This document shows positions 2,663 to 39,798 of a DNA stretch of 40,334 bases, piece by piece. Each line of letters begins with the position of its first letter. The stretch's first letter is position 1. The stretch lies in IMG/VR virus record IMGVR_UViG_3300032218_003137, positions 1 to 40,334 of that record, one strand, 5' to 3'. The notes beneath the pieces are model-generated. The model worked only from the letters and a program-made list of their open reading frames with translations. It was not told the origin of the DNA and searched no databases. The position numbers were made by a program, and so were the translations under genes. This stretch comes from a virus (taxonomy: Duplodnaviria > Caudoviricetes).

Positions 2663-3766
2663 TCAGATTCGCACCGGCATGATGACGGACAGCGTCTTCG
2701 CCGACGCGACCGTCTCGCCGTGCGGCAGGACGAGGATGGGTTCCTCCCGCGACACGAGCCGCAGGTCGACCGACGCGCCGCCGATGGCCTTGACGCTCTC
2801 GCGCAGGTAGTTCGGATTGAGGCCGATGTCGCTCTCCGTGTCGGCGCCGACGACTGCCGCGTCGTGCGTGACGACGAGCTCGCCGAGGTCGGCGTCTGCT
2901 GCCGTCAGGGTCACCGACTGCCCGGCCATCGTGGCCTTGACGCGCAGCGACCCGCCGCCGATAGCCCTCGCCTGTTCTGTCGTCTCGACGAGGAGGCCGC
3001 TCTCGACTGTGACCGTCTGCCCCTCGCCGACCGCCTCGACGACGCTGCGCCAGTCGGGGCTCTGTCCGTCGATGAGACGCATGACGAGCGCCTGCGAGTC
3101 GTCAGCGTAGTGGATGGCGTTCGCCTCGAATGCAAACCGGCCTTCCGCCTTCGCGCAGGCTCGCAGCAGCTTGGCCGAGTCAGCCGAGACGATGACGTGT
3201 GCGTCCTCGTCAAGCGTGAGACCGACAGGCCACGCCGTGCGCGTCATCGCAAGCCGATGCCCGTCCGTCGCCATGAGCGCGAGCCGGTCGCCGTCGCGGG
3301 AGAGGCTGACGCCGCAGAGGGTGTACCGCGTCTGATCCTGACCGACCGCGTGCGCGACGCGCTCGAAGGCCGACGAGAGCTTGTCCCACTGCGGCGACAG
3401 GTCGTCGGCTTTGCACGGCACCGAGATGGCTGCGCTGTCCGCGTCGATGACCGGAACGCCGAAGCGAGCTGCGCCGCTCGATACCGACAGCCGGCGGCCG
3501 AGCGACGGGCAGTCCAGCGTCGTCGCCTCGCCGTGCAGCGCCCCGACGACCGCCGCGAGATGCCGCAACGACACGACGGCCTGCAGCGTCGAGATGCCAC
3601 CCGAGACGCCGAGCCGCCGCTCGTACCAGTCGCCGACCACATTGACGCTCACGCGCAGCGTGTCGCCGTGGCCCTCAAGGCGCACCTGAGTCGTTCCATC
3701 CGTCCGCCCCACGCGCAGCCCGAGGGCGAGCGCCTCCTGTAGTTCCTCTGTGCGTACCTTCGTCAT
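2663..3766 (-). CDS. dnaN: DNA polymerase III beta subunit (sliding clamp) homologue
   Basis: 367 aa. Motifs QTRYTLCGV, MATDGHRLA, RLIDGQSPDWRSVV, LNPNYL and C-terminal VIMPVRI are hallmarks of beta clamps. Confidence 0.9.
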   Translation of the reverse strand: MTKVRTEELQEALALGLRVGRTDGTTQVRLEGHGDTLRVSVNVVGDWYERRLGVSGGISTLQAVVSLRHLAAVVGALHGEATTLDCPSLGRRLSVSSGAARFGVPVIDADSAAISVPCKADDLSPQWDKLSSAFERVAHAVGQDQTRYTLCGVSLSRDGDRLALMATDGHRLAMTRTAWPVGLTLDEDAHVIVSADSAKLLRACAKAEGRFAFEANAIHYADDSQALVMRLIDGQSPDWRSVVEAVGEGQTVTVESGLLVETTEQARAIGGGSLRVKATMAGQSVTLTAADADLGELVVTHDAAVVGADTESDIGLNPNYLRESVKAIGGASVDLRLVSREEPILVLPHGETVASAKTLSVIMPVRI

Positions 3767-7717: not shown

Positions 7718-7738
7718 GGTGCGATCTCCTGTTGTCGC

Positions 7739-7770
7739 GTCTGCTCGCTTCCTACCGCAAGCGAGCAGAC
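7739..7770. promoter_or_regulatory. 12-bp hairpin between the fibre and lysis modules
   Basis: GTCTGCTCGCTT-N8-AAGCGAGCAGAC with no U-tract on the coding strand. Confidence 0.5.
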
Positions 7771-7782
7771 ACGAGTGACTGA

Positions 7783-8073
7783 CTAGGCGTCCACCCAACC
7801 GGCAAAGTCGGGCTGCGCCTTGAGCCAGAGATACGCAGACTCGATCGGCGTCGCGGCCGCCGGCAGGTCGCTCGTCGGGGCGTTGTAGACGCGGCCGACG
7901 ACCGGCACGGCCTGCGCCTGACGCGCCAAAGCATCGGCGTGGATCTCGACCTTGATGAACGAGACCGCGTTGGCGACGTTCTCGCTGGTCACCGAGAGGA
8001 CGCGAGCGTAGGCGGCGAGGAAGTCAAAGTAGACGTCGTTCTTCGAGGGGATGCAGTTTCCGACGAGGGCCAT
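7783..8073 (-). CDS. small tail-fibre-associated protein (possible fibre chaperone)
   Basis: AGGAG RBS and ATG 8073. The C-terminal AYLWLKAQPDFAGWVDA resembles small proteins that follow fibre genes in many phages. Confidence 0.65.
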   Translation of the reverse strand: MALVGNCIPSKNDVYFDFLAAYARVLSVTSENVANAVSFIKVEIHADALARQAQAVPVVGRVYNAPTSDLPAAATPIESAYLWLKAQPDFAGWVDA

Positions 8074-31395: not shown

Positions 31396-32229
31396 TCATC
31401 TGATCTCTAGCACTCGCGGCCCCTCGGGCCATCTAATCGGCATACCGGCCTGTTCTGGCGTGCGAGCATACTTTCTTGCGTTGCAGTGGCGACAGGCCGG
31501 AACCACGTTTTGCGCGTCATGCGCGCCGCCACGGGAGATGGGGATGACGTGGTCCTGCGTCAACCGCTCGCACTCGATTCCGCAATACGCACAGCGATTG
31601 GCAAACCAAGCGATGATCGACTTCCATTGCGCGCGAGTAAGCGTGGCGCCGTTGCCGATGAGTCGTGCCTTGCGCTTATGATATGCGTTCTTGGCCGCCG
31701 ATGGGTCTCGCCGATGACGCTCTCGCACAGCTGCTCGAAATTTCTCCGGGTCGGCGCCGCGCTTGGCTCGTTCCTTCGCGAGCCGCTCTTCTCTGTTCTT
31801 GTAGTAATACTCAGACGATCTCTGTCTGGAGGCCTCTCGCTGCTCAAGCGTCAATACGCGAGGCGGACGCTTTCTCCCTACCGCCTTTGCTTTTGCCTGC
31901 CATTTTTGAGCGAGTCGACGTCTGTGTTCGATTGGTCGCTCTCTCATGTATTTGGCATCGCAAGCGCGACATGACGCGTTTCTGTACATCGCGCCCTGTC
32001 GCTCTCGCATCCGAAACTCGGATGCATCTTTTCTTGCGTGGCATTTGCTGCATGTCTTGGCTTCAAGCATTCGGCTCGGCGACTTCTTCACGTCCAATAC
32101 ATAGGCTCGTGACTTTACCGCCTCTGCGCTTCGACTCTCAAACAGAGACGCGACCATCCGCGCACCCCCTTTCGGGTAATGCTCGCGGATGATCGCGTCC
32201 TCTGTCTCGGTCCACTTGGGCGGCTTCAT
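31396..32229 (-). CDS. free-standing HNH endonuclease with Myb-like and zinc-ribbon N-terminal domains (alternative start 32259)
   Basis: KWTETEDAIIREHYP; KTCSKC...CRAC; CAYCG...LTQDHVIPISRGGAHDAQNVVPACRHCNARK. Visibly more AT-rich than its flanks. Confidence 0.9.
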   Translation of the reverse strand: MKPPKWTETEDAIIREHYPKGGARMVASLFESRSAEAVKSRAYVLDVKKSPSRMLEAKTCSKCHARKDASEFRMRERQGAMYRNASCRACDAKYMRERPIEHRRRLAQKWQAKAKAVGRKRPPRVLTLEQREASRQRSSEYYYKNREERLAKERAKRGADPEKFRAAVRERHRRDPSAAKNAYHKRKARLIGNGATLTRAQWKSIIAWFANRCAYCGIECERLTQDHVIPISRGGAHDAQNVVPACRHCNARKYARTPEQAGMPIRWPEGPRVLEIR

Positions 32230-32258
32230 GCCGCCAGTCTGGCACACGCCACCGCCCA

Positions 32259-34259
32259 TTAGGCGACAGTAACGACTACGTCCTGGCCAATGTTCGCCGA
32301 CAAGACGATCTGGTCCATCTCAGAGAGCAGACGAACCGCGACGCCGAGGACGTAGATGCCTTCCGCCTCGAGCTCCGGCGTGTTGCCGCCGGTCGGGTCG
32401 ACCGTGTAGCCGGCAATGCGCTGCAGGTTCGGGGTTGCCTTCGCGAGAAGCTGCGCGAGGAAGCCGTCCGTCTGCGTGATGAGCGCCGTCTTGATGTTCT
32501 CGGAGAGAAGCTGCTTGACGTACAGGTTGTACTGCCGCGCGAGGCTGTCCTGTATGAAGTCGGCCATGCGGCGACGCGAGATGCGCGTGCGGCCCGAGGT
32601 CAGGCTCGTCGTGATACCCGACTGGAAGACCGGCCCGCTTGAGCGGTCGATGCGGATGCCGCAGATGCCGAAGGACTTCATGACCTCGTAGTCGGCCCGC
32701 GTCAGGACCGGCGCGCCGCGCTGCTGCCCGAGCACCGTCGAGAGCGCCGACTGCGTGACGTCGGTCAGCTCGCCGGGGTTGCGCTCCGGCTGGATGAGCG
32801 AGAGCACGCTGCACAGGTGGCCGGCGGCGGTCAGGTCAAGCACGCCGTCGGTCGTCGTGCCGCCCGTCGCGGTCGCGATGCTGATGCCCACCGCGTCGGC
32901 GTTGTACTGACGCACGCCGGTCCAGGTGTAGATGACGCGGTCCGAGCGGCCGGCGGCGTCAGGCGAGGCCACGCCGAAGGTCTGATCGGTCGTCGCGCCC
33001 GAACTCGAGGAGGTGGCCGCGCCAAGCGTCTGGCAGGCAAGGCCCGGCGCCACGACGGCGACCATGCCGAGGCCAGCCTGCGAGCGGTTGGTGACGAGCT
33101 GCCGCAGGTTGTAGGCGTTGAGCCGCGCGGCGCGCGAGCACATGACGATGTTGACCGCGTTCGCGGGATCGGTGTCGCTCTCGAGCGCGGAGAGCACCTC
33201 TCCGTACTTGACAAGCAACTCGGTGCTGTTCGCCGCGTTCGGCGCCTGCACGGCGGCCGTGTAGGTCAGGCCGTTGCCCGAGCCGGGCTGCGTGCAGAGG
33301 GCGAGGCCAGAGAGCGGCTGCCACGAGGTCGCGGTGCCAGCAGCGGCCGGCACGGCGGGCGTCAGGACGACGTCGTTCGAGACATCCTCAGCGATAGGGC
33401 GAGCGGGGACGCTGAACTGCGCCAGCGATGAGAACAAGCCCGCGCCGGAGTCCGCAGTCGCGGCGACGTGGATGCGCCACGGCATCGCTGTGTCGCTCGT
33501 CCACGCAAAACTGGTCCCATCGAGCTTTCCGACGACGAGCTGCGTCTCCGAGACGACCTGCCGCACGCGATAGGTGCCGGCATCGGCGTCCGTGCCGAGC
33601 ACACCGATGACGATGATGCTGCCGACCGAGACACCGTTCGTGACGAATGCGCCGCCCGCACTATTGAAAAGCTGACCGCCCGAGGAGCCGCCCGCGACTG
33701 CGACGCCGTCGATGCCCGAGGCGTACGCGCCGACCGACGAGAAGACAACCGCGCCAGCCGACTTCGTCTTGTCGCCCGCCGTGTTCGACTGGAACAGCGT
33801 ACCAGCCTGCACCGTCGCGCCGACCATCGGAACGACCGGCGAGGGGTTGGTCGCCGAGGCGTTCGTCGGCAGGTCGCGCACGAGGCGGACGGCCTTCGAC
33901 GAGGCGATGTTGATGGGCGCCACGACGAGGCCGGCGAACCGCTTGCCGCGAATGTCAGCGAGGCCGTTGCCACACGCGCCGCCGAACTGGCCGAGCGTGC
34001 TGTCGAACGGGCCGACCTTGGAGACGAGGTCCGCGTCGCTGGTCACGAAGACGGGGTTCGGAGCCGAGGTGACGTTGCCGCCTTCGACCTTCACCGCGTA
34101 CGACACGTCAGCAAACTCGGCAACGATGCCGACGACGCCCGTGCCCGTGCCCTGGATCTGGGCGGGTCCGACTCCGTCGATAATGACGACGCCTTCGATG
34201 GTCTGAATCTGCTGCACGGACGGGAACGACCCGAACCGCTGGATGAATCCTGCGCCCAT
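32259..34259 (-). CDS. contractile tail sheath protein
   Basis: 666 aa. N-terminal EGVVIID...IQGTGTGVVGIVAEF; C-terminal RRRMADFIQDSL...IAGYTVD...NTPELEAEGIYVLGVAVR. Confidence 0.9.
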   Translation of the reverse strand: MGAGFIQRFGSFPSVQQIQTIEGVVIIDGVGPAQIQGTGTGVVGIVAEFADVSYAVKVEGGNVTSAPNPVFVTSDADLVSKVGPFDSTLGQFGGACGNGLADIRGKRFAGLVVAPINIASSKAVRLVRDLPTNASATNPSPVVPMVGATVQAGTLFQSNTAGDKTKSAGAVVFSSVGAYASGIDGVAVAGGSSGGQLFNSAGGAFVTNGVSVGSIIVIGVLGTDADAGTYRVRQVVSETQLVVGKLDGTSFAWTSDTAMPWRIHVAATADSGAGLFSSLAQFSVPARPIAEDVSNDVVLTPAVPAAAGTATSWQPLSGLALCTQPGSGNGLTYTAAVQAPNAANSTELLVKYGEVLSALESDTDPANAVNIVMCSRAARLNAYNLRQLVTNRSQAGLGMVAVVAPGLACQTLGAATSSSSGATTDQTFGVASPDAAGRSDRVIYTWTGVRQYNADAVGISIATATGGTTTDGVLDLTAAGHLCSVLSLIQPERNPGELTDVTQSALSTVLGQQRGAPVLTRADYEVMKSFGICGIRIDRSSGPVFQSGITTSLTSGRTRISRRRMADFIQDSLARQYNLYVKQLLSENIKTALITQTDGFLAQLLAKATPNLQRIAGYTVDPTGGNTPELEAEGIYVLGVAVRLLSEMDQIVLSANIGQDVVVTVA

Positions 34260-36539: not shown

Positions 36540-36839
36540 CTACACCTCCTCGAGCGGAATCCGGTGCAGCTTCAGCGCCGCGATGTGCTGCGCTCCGACC
36601 ACGGACTCGTCAATGATGGTCCCTACCGCAAGCCACTGCGACGCACCGTACTGATTGAAGAACACGCCCCGCGTCACGCGGTAGAGGCCGCTGCGCGGCT
36701 TGTCGACGACGACCTGGGCGGGCGCCACAACGGGCGCAACCTCGACAACAGGCGCGGCCTCGACGGCCTCTGCCTCGTCGACGACGACGACGAGCTCCGG
36801 CTGCGCCTGCGTGAGCGGATACTTCCTCGGGCGACCCAT
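36540..36839 (-). CDS. small head-region protein with an N-terminal AT-hook-like motif
   Basis: GAGG RBS and ATG 36839. MGRPRKYP, then a V/E/A/P-rich linker and a small domain. Confidence 0.7.
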   Translation of the reverse strand: MGRPRKYPLTQAQPELVVVVDEAEAVEAAPVVEVAPVVAPAQVVVDKPRSGLYRVTRGVFFNQYGASQWLAVGTIIDESVVGAQHIAALKLHRIPLEEV

Positions 36840-36849
36840 GCGAGACCTC

Positions 36850-37274
36850 AAAAAAAAGACGCGGCGCAGAGTGTGTGTCGCGGGAGCGAACCAACCATTG
36901 ACGGAGGTTGTCCCCGATGCTCCCACGACGCTTCTGCGCCGCACGTCATGTGAGGTGCCAGCAAAGCTGGCGACCCTCGACGCCCGACGGCCGAAGCCGT
37001 CGTGTCAAGTTGACGGGCGGTTCCATGCGGCAAAAGCCGCAGGGTTTGCCCGGTTGCCGGCGCGGACCGAAGCCCCGCCGGTAGGTGGTCCTCATCCGAG
37101 GACCACAGTGCGAGGTGTTTGCTAGTCCACACCCGGTGGACATCACCTCGGTTGCGACTCACGACTGCTGCCGCTGTCGTGTGGCGCTCCGCTTGGAGCT
37201 GCCGAGTCGCGACCTTGCTGGGCCTCCGTCCGCCGACTGCAACGCGACGGAGGCCCGAACCATGGCAGCGTAGC
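36850..37274 (-). ncRNA. candidate highly structured non-coding RNA downstream of the major capsid gene, ending in a U8 terminator
   Basis: About nine consecutive stem-loops, two with cUUCGg loops. G-U pairs form only on the minus strand. No credible ORF overlaps it. Confidence 0.65.
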
Positions 37275-38696
37275 CTACTTGTGCTCGACGGTCAGCATGC
37301 GCTTGTAGCGCGACTTGTCGCCGACGGTCGAGTCGGTGCGGACAACGAAGTCGCCGACGTAGCGCCAGCTCGTCGAGACGAGGTCCTGCAGGCGGTTCAG
37401 CGGGGCGCGCATGATCAGCGTCACCTTGTCGCTGTTGACCTCGATGCCGTTGTTCGTGATGGCCGGCGTCGCGAGCTTGCCCGTCAGGCCAGCGTCGGTG
37501 ATGTACTGACCGACGTCCTGGTAGTACTCGTTCAGGCCGCCCTGACCGCTGAACAGCACGCGGTGGATCTCGGTGTTCGCGGCGTTCCAGATCTCGCCGG
37601 CGAACGGGTCGGCCTCGGTGAAGATCTCCGTCGCGTTGCTGTCGCCAGCACCGATGACGGTCTCCTTGACCGGGCACTCGGTGTTGCGGAAGAACGTGAC
37701 GCCAAGCATCTGGCCGATGGCGAACTGCCGGTACATGTAATAGTCCGGCAAGCTGGTGTTGAGGCGCTGGAACTCGGTCGACTCGTAGATCTCGGCCTCG
37801 GAAATGGGGTCGAGGTGCGAGTGGAACGAGCCGTCCGCGTACTCGGGCACGTTCTGCTGGCGGAAGCGAGCGACCGCCGAACGGATCTGCGTCATCGAGA
37901 AGATCGCGTCAACGGAGTCGACCGTCGAGTTGATCCCCTGGCCGCCGTTCGACGCGGCGCGGATGACGATGCTGCGGTCGTACGAGAGCACCGCGTTGCG
38001 GTCGGCGACGTTGCCCGAGAGAGCGGTGCCGAGCACGAGCGAGCCCGGTCCGATCTCGTCACCAGCGGTCGTCGGGACGTAGCCCACGACGGTGTTGGCG
38101 ACGAGCGAGCCACCGATGTTGATGACGATGGGCAGCGGGTTGCCCGAGGTCACCGGAGCGAAGCGGACCGGCGAGCCAGCGGGCAGGTCGGGGCGGCGCG
38201 CGCTCGTGAAGCCGTTGAGGCGCAGCACCGGCAGGATGGACGCGCCCGAGGACGCTCCGCCGTCGCACACCGTCTGGCCGTCGAGGGCGGAGTTGTACAT
38301 CTTGTTGCGGGCGAGACGGTTGACCGTCTTCGCGGCCGCAAGGCCGAGCTGCTGGGCGTTGCGCACGAACAGGTCAGCGATGGCGTTCACGCTGGTCGGG
38401 ATGTTCGTGTCGATGGAGCCGGAGTAGCTCTGGAGCTGAGCAATCCACTGCTCGTTCGAGTACGTCGACGGGGTCGGGTCGACGTTCGCCTGCTGCGGCT
38501 TGAGGTTGATATCCAGCAGGCCGGCGCCCGTGAAGTACATGCTGTCGCCGAGGTTCGCCGTCCAAGCCTTCTGCTCGGCGTCGCCACGGAACAGCATGCG
38601 GGGGAAGAGGGAGTCGTGGAAGGCGCGCTCGAGCAAGCCCTCCTGCACGAGAGCGCGGACCTGGCCGCTCTGGGCAATGACGCTGAAATCAGCCAT
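37275..38696 (-). CDS. major capsid protein
   Basis: 473 aa following a scaffold gene. QLGLAAAKTVNRLARN spine helix; IGQMLGVTFFRN; IMRAPLNRLQDLVSTSWRYVGDF. Confidence 0.85.
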   Translation of the reverse strand: MADFSVIAQSGQVRALVQEGLLERAFHDSLFPRMLFRGDAEQKAWTANLGDSMYFTGAGLLDINLKPQQANVDPTPSTYSNEQWIAQLQSYSGSIDTNIPTSVNAIADLFVRNAQQLGLAAAKTVNRLARNKMYNSALDGQTVCDGGASSGASILPVLRLNGFTSARRPDLPAGSPVRFAPVTSGNPLPIVINIGGSLVANTVVGYVPTTAGDEIGPGSLVLGTALSGNVADRNAVLSYDRSIVIRAASNGGQGINSTVDSVDAIFSMTQIRSAVARFRQQNVPEYADGSFHSHLDPISEAEIYESTEFQRLNTSLPDYYMYRQFAIGQMLGVTFFRNTECPVKETVIGAGDSNATEIFTEADPFAGEIWNAANTEIHRVLFSGQGGLNEYYQDVGQYITDAGLTGKLATPAITNNGIEVNSDKVTLIMRAPLNRLQDLVSTSWRYVGDFVVRTDSTVGDKSRYKRMLTVEHK

Positions 38697-39643: not shown

Positions 39644-39798
39644 GGTGCCTTGTCCGCGTAGTTACCGCCCGCGTATGGCGTGGCGGCACGCTGTCGAGAG
39701 GGTTGTGTCTCCCGGTAGAAGATGGGGCTCGACGAGCGGGAGACGTACCCGCCGAGCCCCTATCGGTCAGTGAGGGGGGCACCGACCGAATGCTGAGA

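What the first reader, a model, noticed from the sequence alone, without database searches (positions are those of the whole stretch)
36850..37274. ~430-nt densely folded RNA behind the major capsid gene: candidate new phage ncRNA
Seen: in a module where most genes touch or overlap, about 435 nt are left non-coding and are almost entirely paired. In minus-strand order: GGGCCTCCGTC/GACGGAGGCCC; a three-way junction closed by GCGACTC/GAGTCGC; CGAGGTG..GTCCAC/GTGGAC..CACCTCG; GTGGTCCTC-GGAT-GAGGACCAC; CCGGCGGGGC-TTCG-GTCCGCGCCGG; TGCGGC-TTTT-GCCGCA inside CGGGC/GCCCG; CGACGGC-TTCG-GCCGTCG; GCCAGC-TTT-GCTGGC; and an ~85-nt bulged rod GCGGCGCAGA...TCTGCGCCGC followed by T8. The cUUCGg loops and several G-U pairs work only on the minus strand, which argues for selection on RNA rather than DNA structure. 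GCAA recurs in several linkers. I do not recognise group I/II intron, tRNA, tmRNA, RNase P or hammerhead cores. Inference: an abundant late RNA co-transcribed with the capsid gene. It could be a packaging/prohead RNA, a protein sponge against host defence, or an attenuation platform setting the capsid-to-neck ratio.
Basis: partly seen in the sequence, partly recalled or inferred. Interest (0 to 1): 0.85.

Follow-up and report, generated by a model that had tools for sequence, protein, structure and literature searches.

The report
Capsid-linked knotted RNA with nuclease partner
Behind the capsid gene of a family of uncultured tailed phages lies a conserved, knotted, uncatalogued RNA that is kept or lost together with a small nuclease-fold gene, so the two likely work as an RNA-protein unit, predicted to act in building or filling the phage head.

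Summary
Confirmed and extended. The 435-nt gap after the major capsid gene of this uncultured myovirus encodes a real structured RNA on the capsid strand (z -7.5; no Rfam match; cUUCGg hairpins 60 sense against 0 antisense in 48 lineages). The RNA is widespread on the capsid tree and was repeatedly reduced to a plain terminator, so it is not an essential phi29-type pRNA. New here: a small HNH-fold gene 4-10 kb upstream is present in 33 of 36 RNA carriers (27 of 27 with H1) and 0 of 17 RNA-less phages (6 independent pairs, p about 0.03); a neighbouring phosphatase gene tracks less well. Best reading: RNA scaffold of an HNH ribonucleoprotein of the head module (0.42); binding is untested and shared gene loss is a live alternative.

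The parts
37275..38696 (-). Major capsid protein gene (473 aa); the RNA begins about 18 nt after its stop codon
   Evidence: PHROG 1357 major head protein, E 2e-9
36850..37274 (-). Whole structured RNA region
   Evidence: 11 compensatory changes among 6 close relatives
37220..37256 (-). First hairpin after the stop codon; a hairpin stands here in most relatives, sequence not conserved
37154..37210 (-). Three-way junction, variable 5' region, clade-specific
   Evidence: one compensatory pair, 78/87
37111..37150 (-). Hairpin H0 with a 7-nt 3' bulge; a similar bulged hairpin recurs in many lineages
   Evidence: read by eye, not counted formally; two compensatory pairs
37057..37106 (-). Two hairpins in the place where many relatives carry a GGUC-loop hairpin; the window's own copies are divergent
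37013..37053 (-). Core hairpin H1: outer helix, internal loop AAA/AACC, two C-G pairs, C-U mismatch, inner stem-loop; invariant GCAA and GC; candidate binding site of the HNH-fold protein
36957..37002 (-). Two side arms of the 3' domain, variable in number and sequence
36861..36942 (-). Long rod (median 21.5 bp in 38 lineages)
36892..36916 (-). H-type pseudoknot at the rod tip: stem 1 36916-36913 with 36905-36902, stem 2 36910-36906 with 36896-36892
36850..36862 (-). 3' strand of the closing helix and U8 tail (terminator-like end); the canonical 5' partner at 37006-37002 has one mismatch in this clade
36540..36839 (-). Small gene after the RNA (99 aa: basic start, low-complexity linker, 54-aa folded C-terminal domain); present with or without the RNA; family not identified

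Best explanation
The 425 bases behind the capsid gene fold into a conserved, covarying RNA that is kept or lost together with a small HNH-fold gene of the head module, and it likely serves as the RNA scaffold of a complex with that protein, predicted to act during head assembly or DNA packaging. Steps. (1) Shown: the fold (core hairpin H1, closing helix, rod, tip pseudoknot), its strand, and one copy of H1 per genome. (2) Inferred: it is made as the 3' part of the capsid transcript, so it appears late and in step with capsid protein; the closing helix and pyrimidine tail give its 3' end by termination or processing. (3) Inferred: it can be cut free of the capsid message, because tRNA genes or a homing-type nuclease gene sit between capsid gene and RNA core in some relatives. 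(4) Inferred from co-occurrence only: the 130-150 aa HNH-fold protein binds the RNA, most likely at the invariant internal loop of H1, which was never seen without the protein gene. (5) Predicted by analogy with packaging-linked HNH proteins: the RNA holds the nuclease in check or positions it at the packaging step; AACC and GGUC loops may join copies. (6) Shown as a pattern: when the module is lost, a plain GC-rich hairpin with a U run stands in its place, so the terminator role of the 3' end is separable from the rest.
For: Structure: H1 93.8% of 438 cells paired, 97 cells changed on both sides, 0 of 500 shuffles, slid controls 33-41%; with selection by sequence alone an inner stem of 4 bp or more in 21 of 22 capsid-linked matches against 6 of 81 others. 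Pseudoknot stem 1 pairs with its own loop in 37 of 38 lineages against 52% across lineages; in the 12 non-GGG lineages 11 of 12 against 4-11%; rod-plus-knot score of 70 or more in 49 of 54 H1 loci against 12 of 108 shuffles. One H1 per record in 5 of 5 carriers, none in 5 of 5 RNA-less records. Partner: 2 of 207 protein clusters were in all 5 RNA-carrying and none of 3 RNA-less records; on wider test the HNH-fold gene was in 14 of 18 carriers and 0 of 8 RNA-less records; in loci fetched afterwards 0 of 7 new RNA-less phages had it within about 10 kb and both new full-length carriers did. Final table 33 of 36 against 0 of 17, H1 carriers 27 of 27; 6 independent pairs, 5.7 the same way, 0.0 the other way, sign test median p 0.031, range 0.031-0.063 (p 0.016 without L529). 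The three carriers without the gene (L023, L520, L529) all lack H1; L044 and the L008/L010 clade have an eroded H1 and an eroded or truncated protein. HNH family matches. Inserted tRNAs in L038, L039, L075, inserted HNH genes in L148, L229, L529. Packaging-linked HNH precedent: PMC12967558 (abstract), PMC3592412 (search listing).
Against: No binding was tested; all partner evidence is presence and absence in fragmentary records, with states partly set by eye. The head module is generally leaner in RNA-less phages: the HAD phosphatase gene also follows the RNA (28 of 32 against 4 of 15; pairs 3.4 against 0.4, p 0.25) and smaller clusters are carrier-only, so shared streamlining may explain part or all of it. 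Five of the 36 carrier rows came through a scan anchored on the HNH gene, which inflates that column. Two RNA-less rows have only 6-7 kb of upstream DNA whereas the gene lies 3.7-10 kb upstream; a carrier with 5.6 kb and no hit (L079) was left out as uncovered. L048 and L546 lack H1 but keep an intact protein. The gene is 4-10 kb from the RNA, unlike known RNA-nuclease pairs. In the window's own clade the Asn of the HNH motif is Thr, so nuclease activity is not assured, and the window's contig ends before the gene (it is 4.4 kb upstream in L401, 98% identical capsid). Expression evidence is weak.
Confidence: 0.42

Rival explanations
1. It is a stand-alone large RNA of the GOLLD/ROOL sort that assembles with itself or soaks up a host factor, and the HNH gene is lost with it only because some lineages shed several accessory head-module genes.
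For: Conserved 3' region with variable 5' region, embedded tRNAs and dispensability are described for GOLLD/ROOL (PMC12286853, passages) and seen here. A GGUC loop that could pair with the H1 AACC occurs in 26 of 39 AACC lineages against 3 of 10 others and 9 of 49 downstream controls. HAD gene and other small genes are also depleted in RNA-less phages.
Against: The HNH gene follows the RNA more tightly than HAD (0 of 17 against 4 of 15 in RNA-less phages) and erodes where H1 erodes. No compensatory change supports the loop-loop pair, and the window's clade lacks the GGUC loop.
Confidence: 0.27
2. It is a cis element of the capsid message: an elaborate terminator, attenuator or 3' stabiliser that sets how much transcription runs on into the neck and tail genes.
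For: Always between the capsid gene and the same small gene; H1 not found elsewhere in viral contigs or in the records searched. Reduction series ends in plain GC-rich hairpins with U runs (19 short gaps). The window has U8 directly after the helix.
Against: Strict U tract in only 9 of 30 lineages, often displaced by a short AC-start tail (11 of 30). Extra hairpins can separate the RNA from the ribosome site and site accessibility is the same with and without the RNA (0.46 against 0.47). I saw no conserved alternative pairing (by eye). One hairpin does this job in sister phages. It does not explain the HNH pattern.
Confidence: 0.2
3. It is an essential prohead RNA of the phi29 type that rings the portal and drives the packaging ATPase.
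For: Position in the head module; AACC in an internal loop and a GGU-bearing loop recall the pRNA CE-loop and D-loop pair (PMC2241910, passages).
Against: pRNA is essential, whereas this RNA changes state at least 8 times on the tree of 89 rows; the two closest records encode a Terminase_6N large subunit (2 of 5 searched); the motifs are only 3-4 letters.
Confidence: 0.05
4. It is a ribozyme, riboswitch or tRNA-like decoy that is processed out of the late transcript.
For: A pseudoknot, an invariant internal loop, a G-start closing helix followed by AC(C/U) in 11 of 30 lineages, and a near-constant rod length.
Against: The pseudoknot's letters covary freely, so it holds no conserved catalytic or ligand pocket; H1 and the knot are lost separately; no Rfam or ARAGORN match; no T-loop.
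Confidence: 0.06

Closest known systems
GOLLD and ROOL RNAs (Rfam; PMC5737381 and PMC12286853, passages read)
   Same: Large, multi-junction phage RNA of unknown function, pseudoknotted, dispensable, conserved 3' and variable 5' part, tRNA genes sometimes inside.
   Different: No Rfam match; shorter (about 150-650 nt against about 580 and over 800 nt); fixed behind the capsid gene, not in tRNA islands; one pseudoknot shown; tracks with a phage protein gene, whereas ROOL has no known protein partner.
phi29 prohead RNA (PMC2241910, passages read)
   Same: Phage RNA linked to the head module; AACC loop and a GGU loop that could join copies.
   Different: Repeatedly lost; terminase-type phage; 2-3 times longer; no compensatory support for the loop pair.
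HEARO / omega-RNA with IscB (PMC13565253, passages read)
   Same: Structured RNA associated with an HNH-domain protein.
   Different: Partner is a 130-150 aa HNH-only protein without RuvC, 4-10 kb away, single copy, in a fixed head-module position; no variable guide segment or transposon ends seen; no Rfam HEARO match.
Packaging-linked HNH endonucleases (Skunavirus HrdP, PMC12967558 abstract; HK97 gp74 type, PMC3592412 search listing)
   Same: Small zinc-binding HNH protein encoded among head and packaging genes.
   Different: Lies downstream of the portal gene, not beside the terminase; has an extra N-terminal helical part and a basic insert; is dispensable together with an RNA; no RNA partner is mentioned in what I read.
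Type III antitoxin pseudoknots and their phage mimics (ToxI, PMC3475682 search listing)
   Same: H-type pseudoknot RNA that could restrain a nuclease.
   Different: Single knot closed inside a long rod, not tandem repeats with free tails; no ToxN-type gene tested or seen.
Intrinsic terminators after major capsid genes (general knowledge, recalled)
   Same: The 3' helix plus U run, and the plain hairpin of RNA-less sister phages.
   Different: 300-500 further nucleotides with conserved tertiary features.

Membership tests
GOLLD / ROOL | Match to the Rfam covariance model | tested here: not met
   window; 10 relatives: only a tRNA
GOLLD / ROOL | Location near tRNA islands | tested here: not met
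   tRNA in the gap in 3 of 122 regions; none in the window
GOLLD / ROOL | RNA-only homo-oligomeric cage | not testable with these tools
   needs mass photometry or cryo-EM
phi29 pRNA | Essential for packaging, present in all family members | tested here: not met
   at least 8 state changes among 89 rows; H1 absent from 5 of 5 RNA-less records, one complete
   co-occurrence 26 of 39 against 3 of 10, no compensatory change
phi29 pRNA | phi29-type ATPase motor without terminase | tested here: not met
   Terminase_6N over cut-off in the two closest records, 2 of 5 searched
HEARO / omega-RNA-IscB | RNA adjacent to a RuvC-HNH protein in a transposon | tested here: not met
   partner 130-150 aa, HNH families only, 3.7-10 kb away
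HEARO / omega-RNA-IscB | RNA-guided cleavage | not testable with these tools
   needs a cleavage assay
HNH endonuclease fold (partner protein) | Zinc-binding cysteines with His, Asn, His motif | tested here: met
   Pfam HNH 28.6 bits over cut-off 21.4 for one of 2 members scanned; strict pattern in 31 of 48 sequences, Asn replaced in the window's clade; fold search gave only weak HNH matches, none at E 0.001
Intrinsic terminator | GC-rich stem directly followed by a U tract | tested here: inconclusive
   window has U8 but a long-loop stem, missed by the scanner; strict tract in 9 of 30 lineages
tRNA / tmRNA / RNase P / SRP / known ribozymes and riboswitches | Match to ARAGORN or Rfam models | tested here: not met
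Candidate RNAs of Fremin et al. 2023 | Listed among the 8,495 IMG/VR candidates | tested here: inconclusive
   no motif or sample id in 3 of 6 held supplement files; the other three and three larger files could not be read

The most novel reading that the evidence does not exclude
A new kind of phage ribonucleoprotein: the tail end of the capsid message folds into a 400-nt scaffold that loads a small HNH nuclease encoded kilobases away and brings it, held in check, to the packaging step, an optional RNA-based arm of a terminase-type motor that has been lost at least six times.
Probability: 0.35. Interest if true: 0.92.

Novelty: new variant of a known kind. Interest (0 to 1): 0.78.

Why it matters
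Large structured phage RNAs (GOLLD, ROOL) have solved structures but no function, and ROOL has no known partner. This family comes with natural knock-outs, a reduction series down to one hairpin, and a named candidate partner, so its job can be tested with two purified parts. If the link holds, RNA would have a role in head assembly or packaging outside the phi29 family, and a minimal HNH protein would have a large RNA cofactor unrelated to CRISPR or OMEGA systems. As shown so far it is a new family within the loose class of large ornate phage RNAs; the ribonucleoprotein reading would be categorically new.

Tried and rejected
Rfam at gathering and loose thresholds: nothing. Cultured phages: no DNA match over 32 bases, nearest capsid 31% in Streptomyces phage Kromp, whose gap after the capsid gene is under 60 nt. 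A generic pseudoknot search did not separate real from shuffled sequence and was replaced by rod-anchored and cross-pairing tests; stem 2 and the knot position were chosen with stem 1 in the score, so one search is not wholly free of circularity, and L098 was dropped there. G-U against A-C and GNRA counts gave no strand signal. Promoter scan: none in the window; hits in three related gaps lie inside hairpins; a promoter-like stretch in L199 is by eye only. Closing helix: own 30 of 38 against 63% across lineages, a weak contrast because the sequence is conserved. Host: not found; the one bacterial-genome locus is a 17.8 kb contig in an Acidimicrobiaceae bin and clamp and cluster look-ups named no host. 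H1 model in 100 other genomes of that phylum: no match, 66 candidates scored in each listed genome. Small downstream protein: no Pfam family, no fold match (best Z 3.7); a lambda FI-like role is recalled, not tested. Its DPLEAAK-type motif is in 22 of 24 RNA-less and 19 of 72 carrier rows but fails the tree-aware test (p 0.25). HAD gene as partner: rejected, kept in 4 of 15 RNA-less phages. Resemblances of the knot to plant-virus tRNA-like ends and to 16S helix 18 are recalled and untested. A control of the RNA library on a silent stretch of the contig is missing, so DNA carry-over in that library is not excluded. No complex prediction was run. Ten literature searches showed no description of this RNA in their listings.

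Full report
Setting. The window is a whole 40,334-base viral contig of about 65% G+C with a contractile-tail module on the minus strand: scaffold, major capsid protein (37275-38696), neck, sheath, tape measure and baseplate genes. The capsid protein has at least 652 relatives in metagenomes, mostly 54-60% identical, and only distant cultured ones (31%). Near-complete related records are 85-94 kb; the sequencing runs that hold the stretch are mostly freshwater and sediment samples. The host is unknown.

Observation. The plus strand folds as well (z -9.6) and G-U counts are neutral (46 against 41), so the strand rests on cUUCGg hairpins: 60 on the capsid strand and 0 on the other in 48 lineages. 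Among six close relatives there are 11 compensatory changes, 4 one-sided changes that keep the pair and 14 breaks, most of these in marginal pairs at the very start; single-base indels rule out a conserved frame. No Rfam, tRNA or tmRNA match.

Family and anatomy. From 184 capsid-downstream regions, 122 were distinct; 54 carried a core hairpin by pattern and fold, falling into 39 lineages; 37 were aligned, two with long inserts being left out. Core hairpin H1: 93.8% of cells paired, 97 changed on both sides, 0 of 500 shuffles (the rows were chosen partly by fold, and shuffles ignore kinship). The model finds one sense-strand copy per locus and per record. Downstream, a closing helix that starts mostly 8-14 nt after H1 encloses side arms and a rod of median 21.5 bp whose tip is an H-type pseudoknot. 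Stem 1 pairs with its own loop in 37 of 38 lineages against 52% across lineages, and compensatory changes occur even inside close clades, including the window's. Upstream, a bulged hairpin and a GGUC-loop hairpin recur; the rest varies freely.

Evolution. On the capsid tree the RNA is spread across the main clade and is repeatedly replaced by a gap of about 80 nt (at least 8 changes among 89 rows) holding a plain GC-rich hairpin with a U run. Intermediate forms keep only rod and knot (L144, L184, L073) or lose only H1 (L048, L050, L044). H1 has not moved elsewhere in 5 of 5 RNA-less records. tRNA genes lie inside the gap in 3 of 122 regions and homing-type HNH genes between capsid gene and RNA in L148, L229 and L529.

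Expression. One RNA library holds near-identical contigs at 37050-37196, 37439-37707 and 38301-38515, at depth 3-6, and nothing comparable elsewhere in the 7.3 kb laid. This is compatible with transcription of capsid gene and RNA but does not show it, nor a level or ends; a silent-stretch control is missing.

Partner search. Six-frame proteins of 5 carrier and 3 RNA-less records gave 207 shared clusters, of which two were in all carriers and no RNA-less record: a HAD phosphatase and a 130-150 aa HNH-fold protein. In 26 records the HAD gene was in 3 of 8 RNA-less ones, the HNH-fold gene in 0 of 8, and in 14 of 18 carriers; of the four misses two are short of upstream DNA, one is an outer-clade phage of unclear RNA state and one has a reduced RNA. 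The gene lies 3.7-10 kb before the capsid gene, between the probable portal gene and a probable minor head gene (these two names are inferred from size and position). Loci fetched afterwards served as a fresh test: 0 of 7 new RNA-less phages had it, 2 of 2 full carriers did, and two carriers without H1 did not. Final table: 33 of 36 carriers, 27 of 27 with H1, 6 of 9 without H1, 0 of 17 RNA-less; six independent pairs agree (median p 0.031), whereas HAD gives p 0.25. Left out: L557 (RNA state unknown), L118 (degenerate rod, no gene in 6.8 kb), L079 and all loci with under 6 kb upstream and no hit. Biases: five carrier rows came through the HNH-anchored scan; two RNA-less rows have only 6-7 kb upstream; states were partly set by eye; RNA-less phages have a leaner head module in general. 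Where H1 is eroded the protein is often eroded too (L044, L008/L010), but L048 and L546 keep it without H1. The window's contig ends before the gene; its closest relative has it, with Thr for the motif's Asn. The predicted model has mean pLDDT 67 and weak HNH-type matches only.

Mechanism. I commit to an RNA scaffold for the HNH-fold protein, made with the capsid message and ended by its own terminator-like helix (0.42). Shown: fold, strand, position, losses, co-occurrence. Inferred: transcription, release, binding at H1. Predicted by analogy: a role at packaging, since a small HNH protein beside packaging genes is needed for virion formation in Skunavirus (PMC12967558, abstract). Rivals: stand-alone GOLLD/ROOL-like RNA with coincidental co-loss (0.27), cis terminator or attenuator (0.2), ribozyme, riboswitch or tRNA-like decoy (0.06), essential pRNA (0.05).

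Comparison with what is known. It behaves like GOLLD and ROOL in several respects (PMC12286853 and PMC5737381, passages) but matches neither model. The AACC and GGU loops echo phi29 pRNA (PMC2241910, passages), yet essentiality and motor type fail. HEARO/omega-RNA pairs with a RuvC-HNH protein in a transposon (PMC13565253, passages), unlike this. Ten searches of the held library showed no description in their listings; the large viral candidate set of PMC10690425 (passages) could be searched in only 3 of 6 held supplements, so parts of the RNA may be listed there.

Earlier notes of this scan. A look-alike on another genome (e1-5855416) and two word matches describe what seems to be the same family, two marked as partly fallen on re-test; I saw only their short texts. 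My terminator count agrees with a non-universal terminator. Two look-ups for an HNH partner of this RNA found no note holding all the words; the near misses concern other RNAs beside HNH genes, several judged there to be passengers, a caution that applies here, although this gene is distant, single and co-lost rather than adjacent.

Verdict. Real, new RNA family with well-supported structure and a specific, testable partner hypothesis. Interest 0.78.

Noticed in passing
window 39644-39790, minus strand: Structured leader before the scaffold gene (z -6.5) with a likely H-type pseudoknot whose first stem shows compensatory changes in close relatives; candidate translational operator of the scaffold-capsid genes.
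   Followed up: partly
L038 and L039 (about 115-205 nt after the capsid stop), L075 (86-160 nt after): tRNA-Tyr or tRNA-Met genes embedded in the 5' part of the RNA region.
   Followed up: partly
L148, L229, L529, L557, directly after the capsid stop: Homing-type HNH genes inserted between capsid gene and RNA, distinct from the partner family; L557 seems to hold two.
   Followed up: partly
window 36540-36839 and relatives: The small downstream protein keeps a DPLEAAK-type motif in 22 of 24 RNA-less rows but only 19 of 72 carriers; direction consistent, not significant on the tree.
   Followed up: partly
head module of relatives, for example L401 2-8 kb before the capsid gene: A run of small unknown genes between the probable portal gene and the scaffold gene (HAD phosphatase, a cysteine-bearing 150-aa protein, several 60-180 aa acidic proteins), thinner in RNA-less phages.
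   Followed up: partly
L199, about 230-400 nt after the capsid stop: A weakly structured spacer and a promoter-like sequence before the RNA, suggesting its own transcription unit in this phage (by eye).
   Followed up: no
window 31396-32259, minus strand: Free-standing 287-aa HNH endonuclease gene between the tail sheath and the next tail gene; not in the partner cluster.
   Followed up: no
window 7730-7785: Strong hairpin after a tail-region gene accounts for the lowest folding z of the contig; probably an ordinary terminator or stabiliser.
   Followed up: no
window 36976-37002, minus strand: The side arm with the UUCG loop could alternatively form a second pseudoknot; one relative has a change that improves its second stem. 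Clade-specific.
   Followed up: no
window 2663-3766 and 268-1059: Phage-encoded DNA polymerase III beta clamp and a peptidase M15 endolysin on the opposite strand.
   Followed up: no
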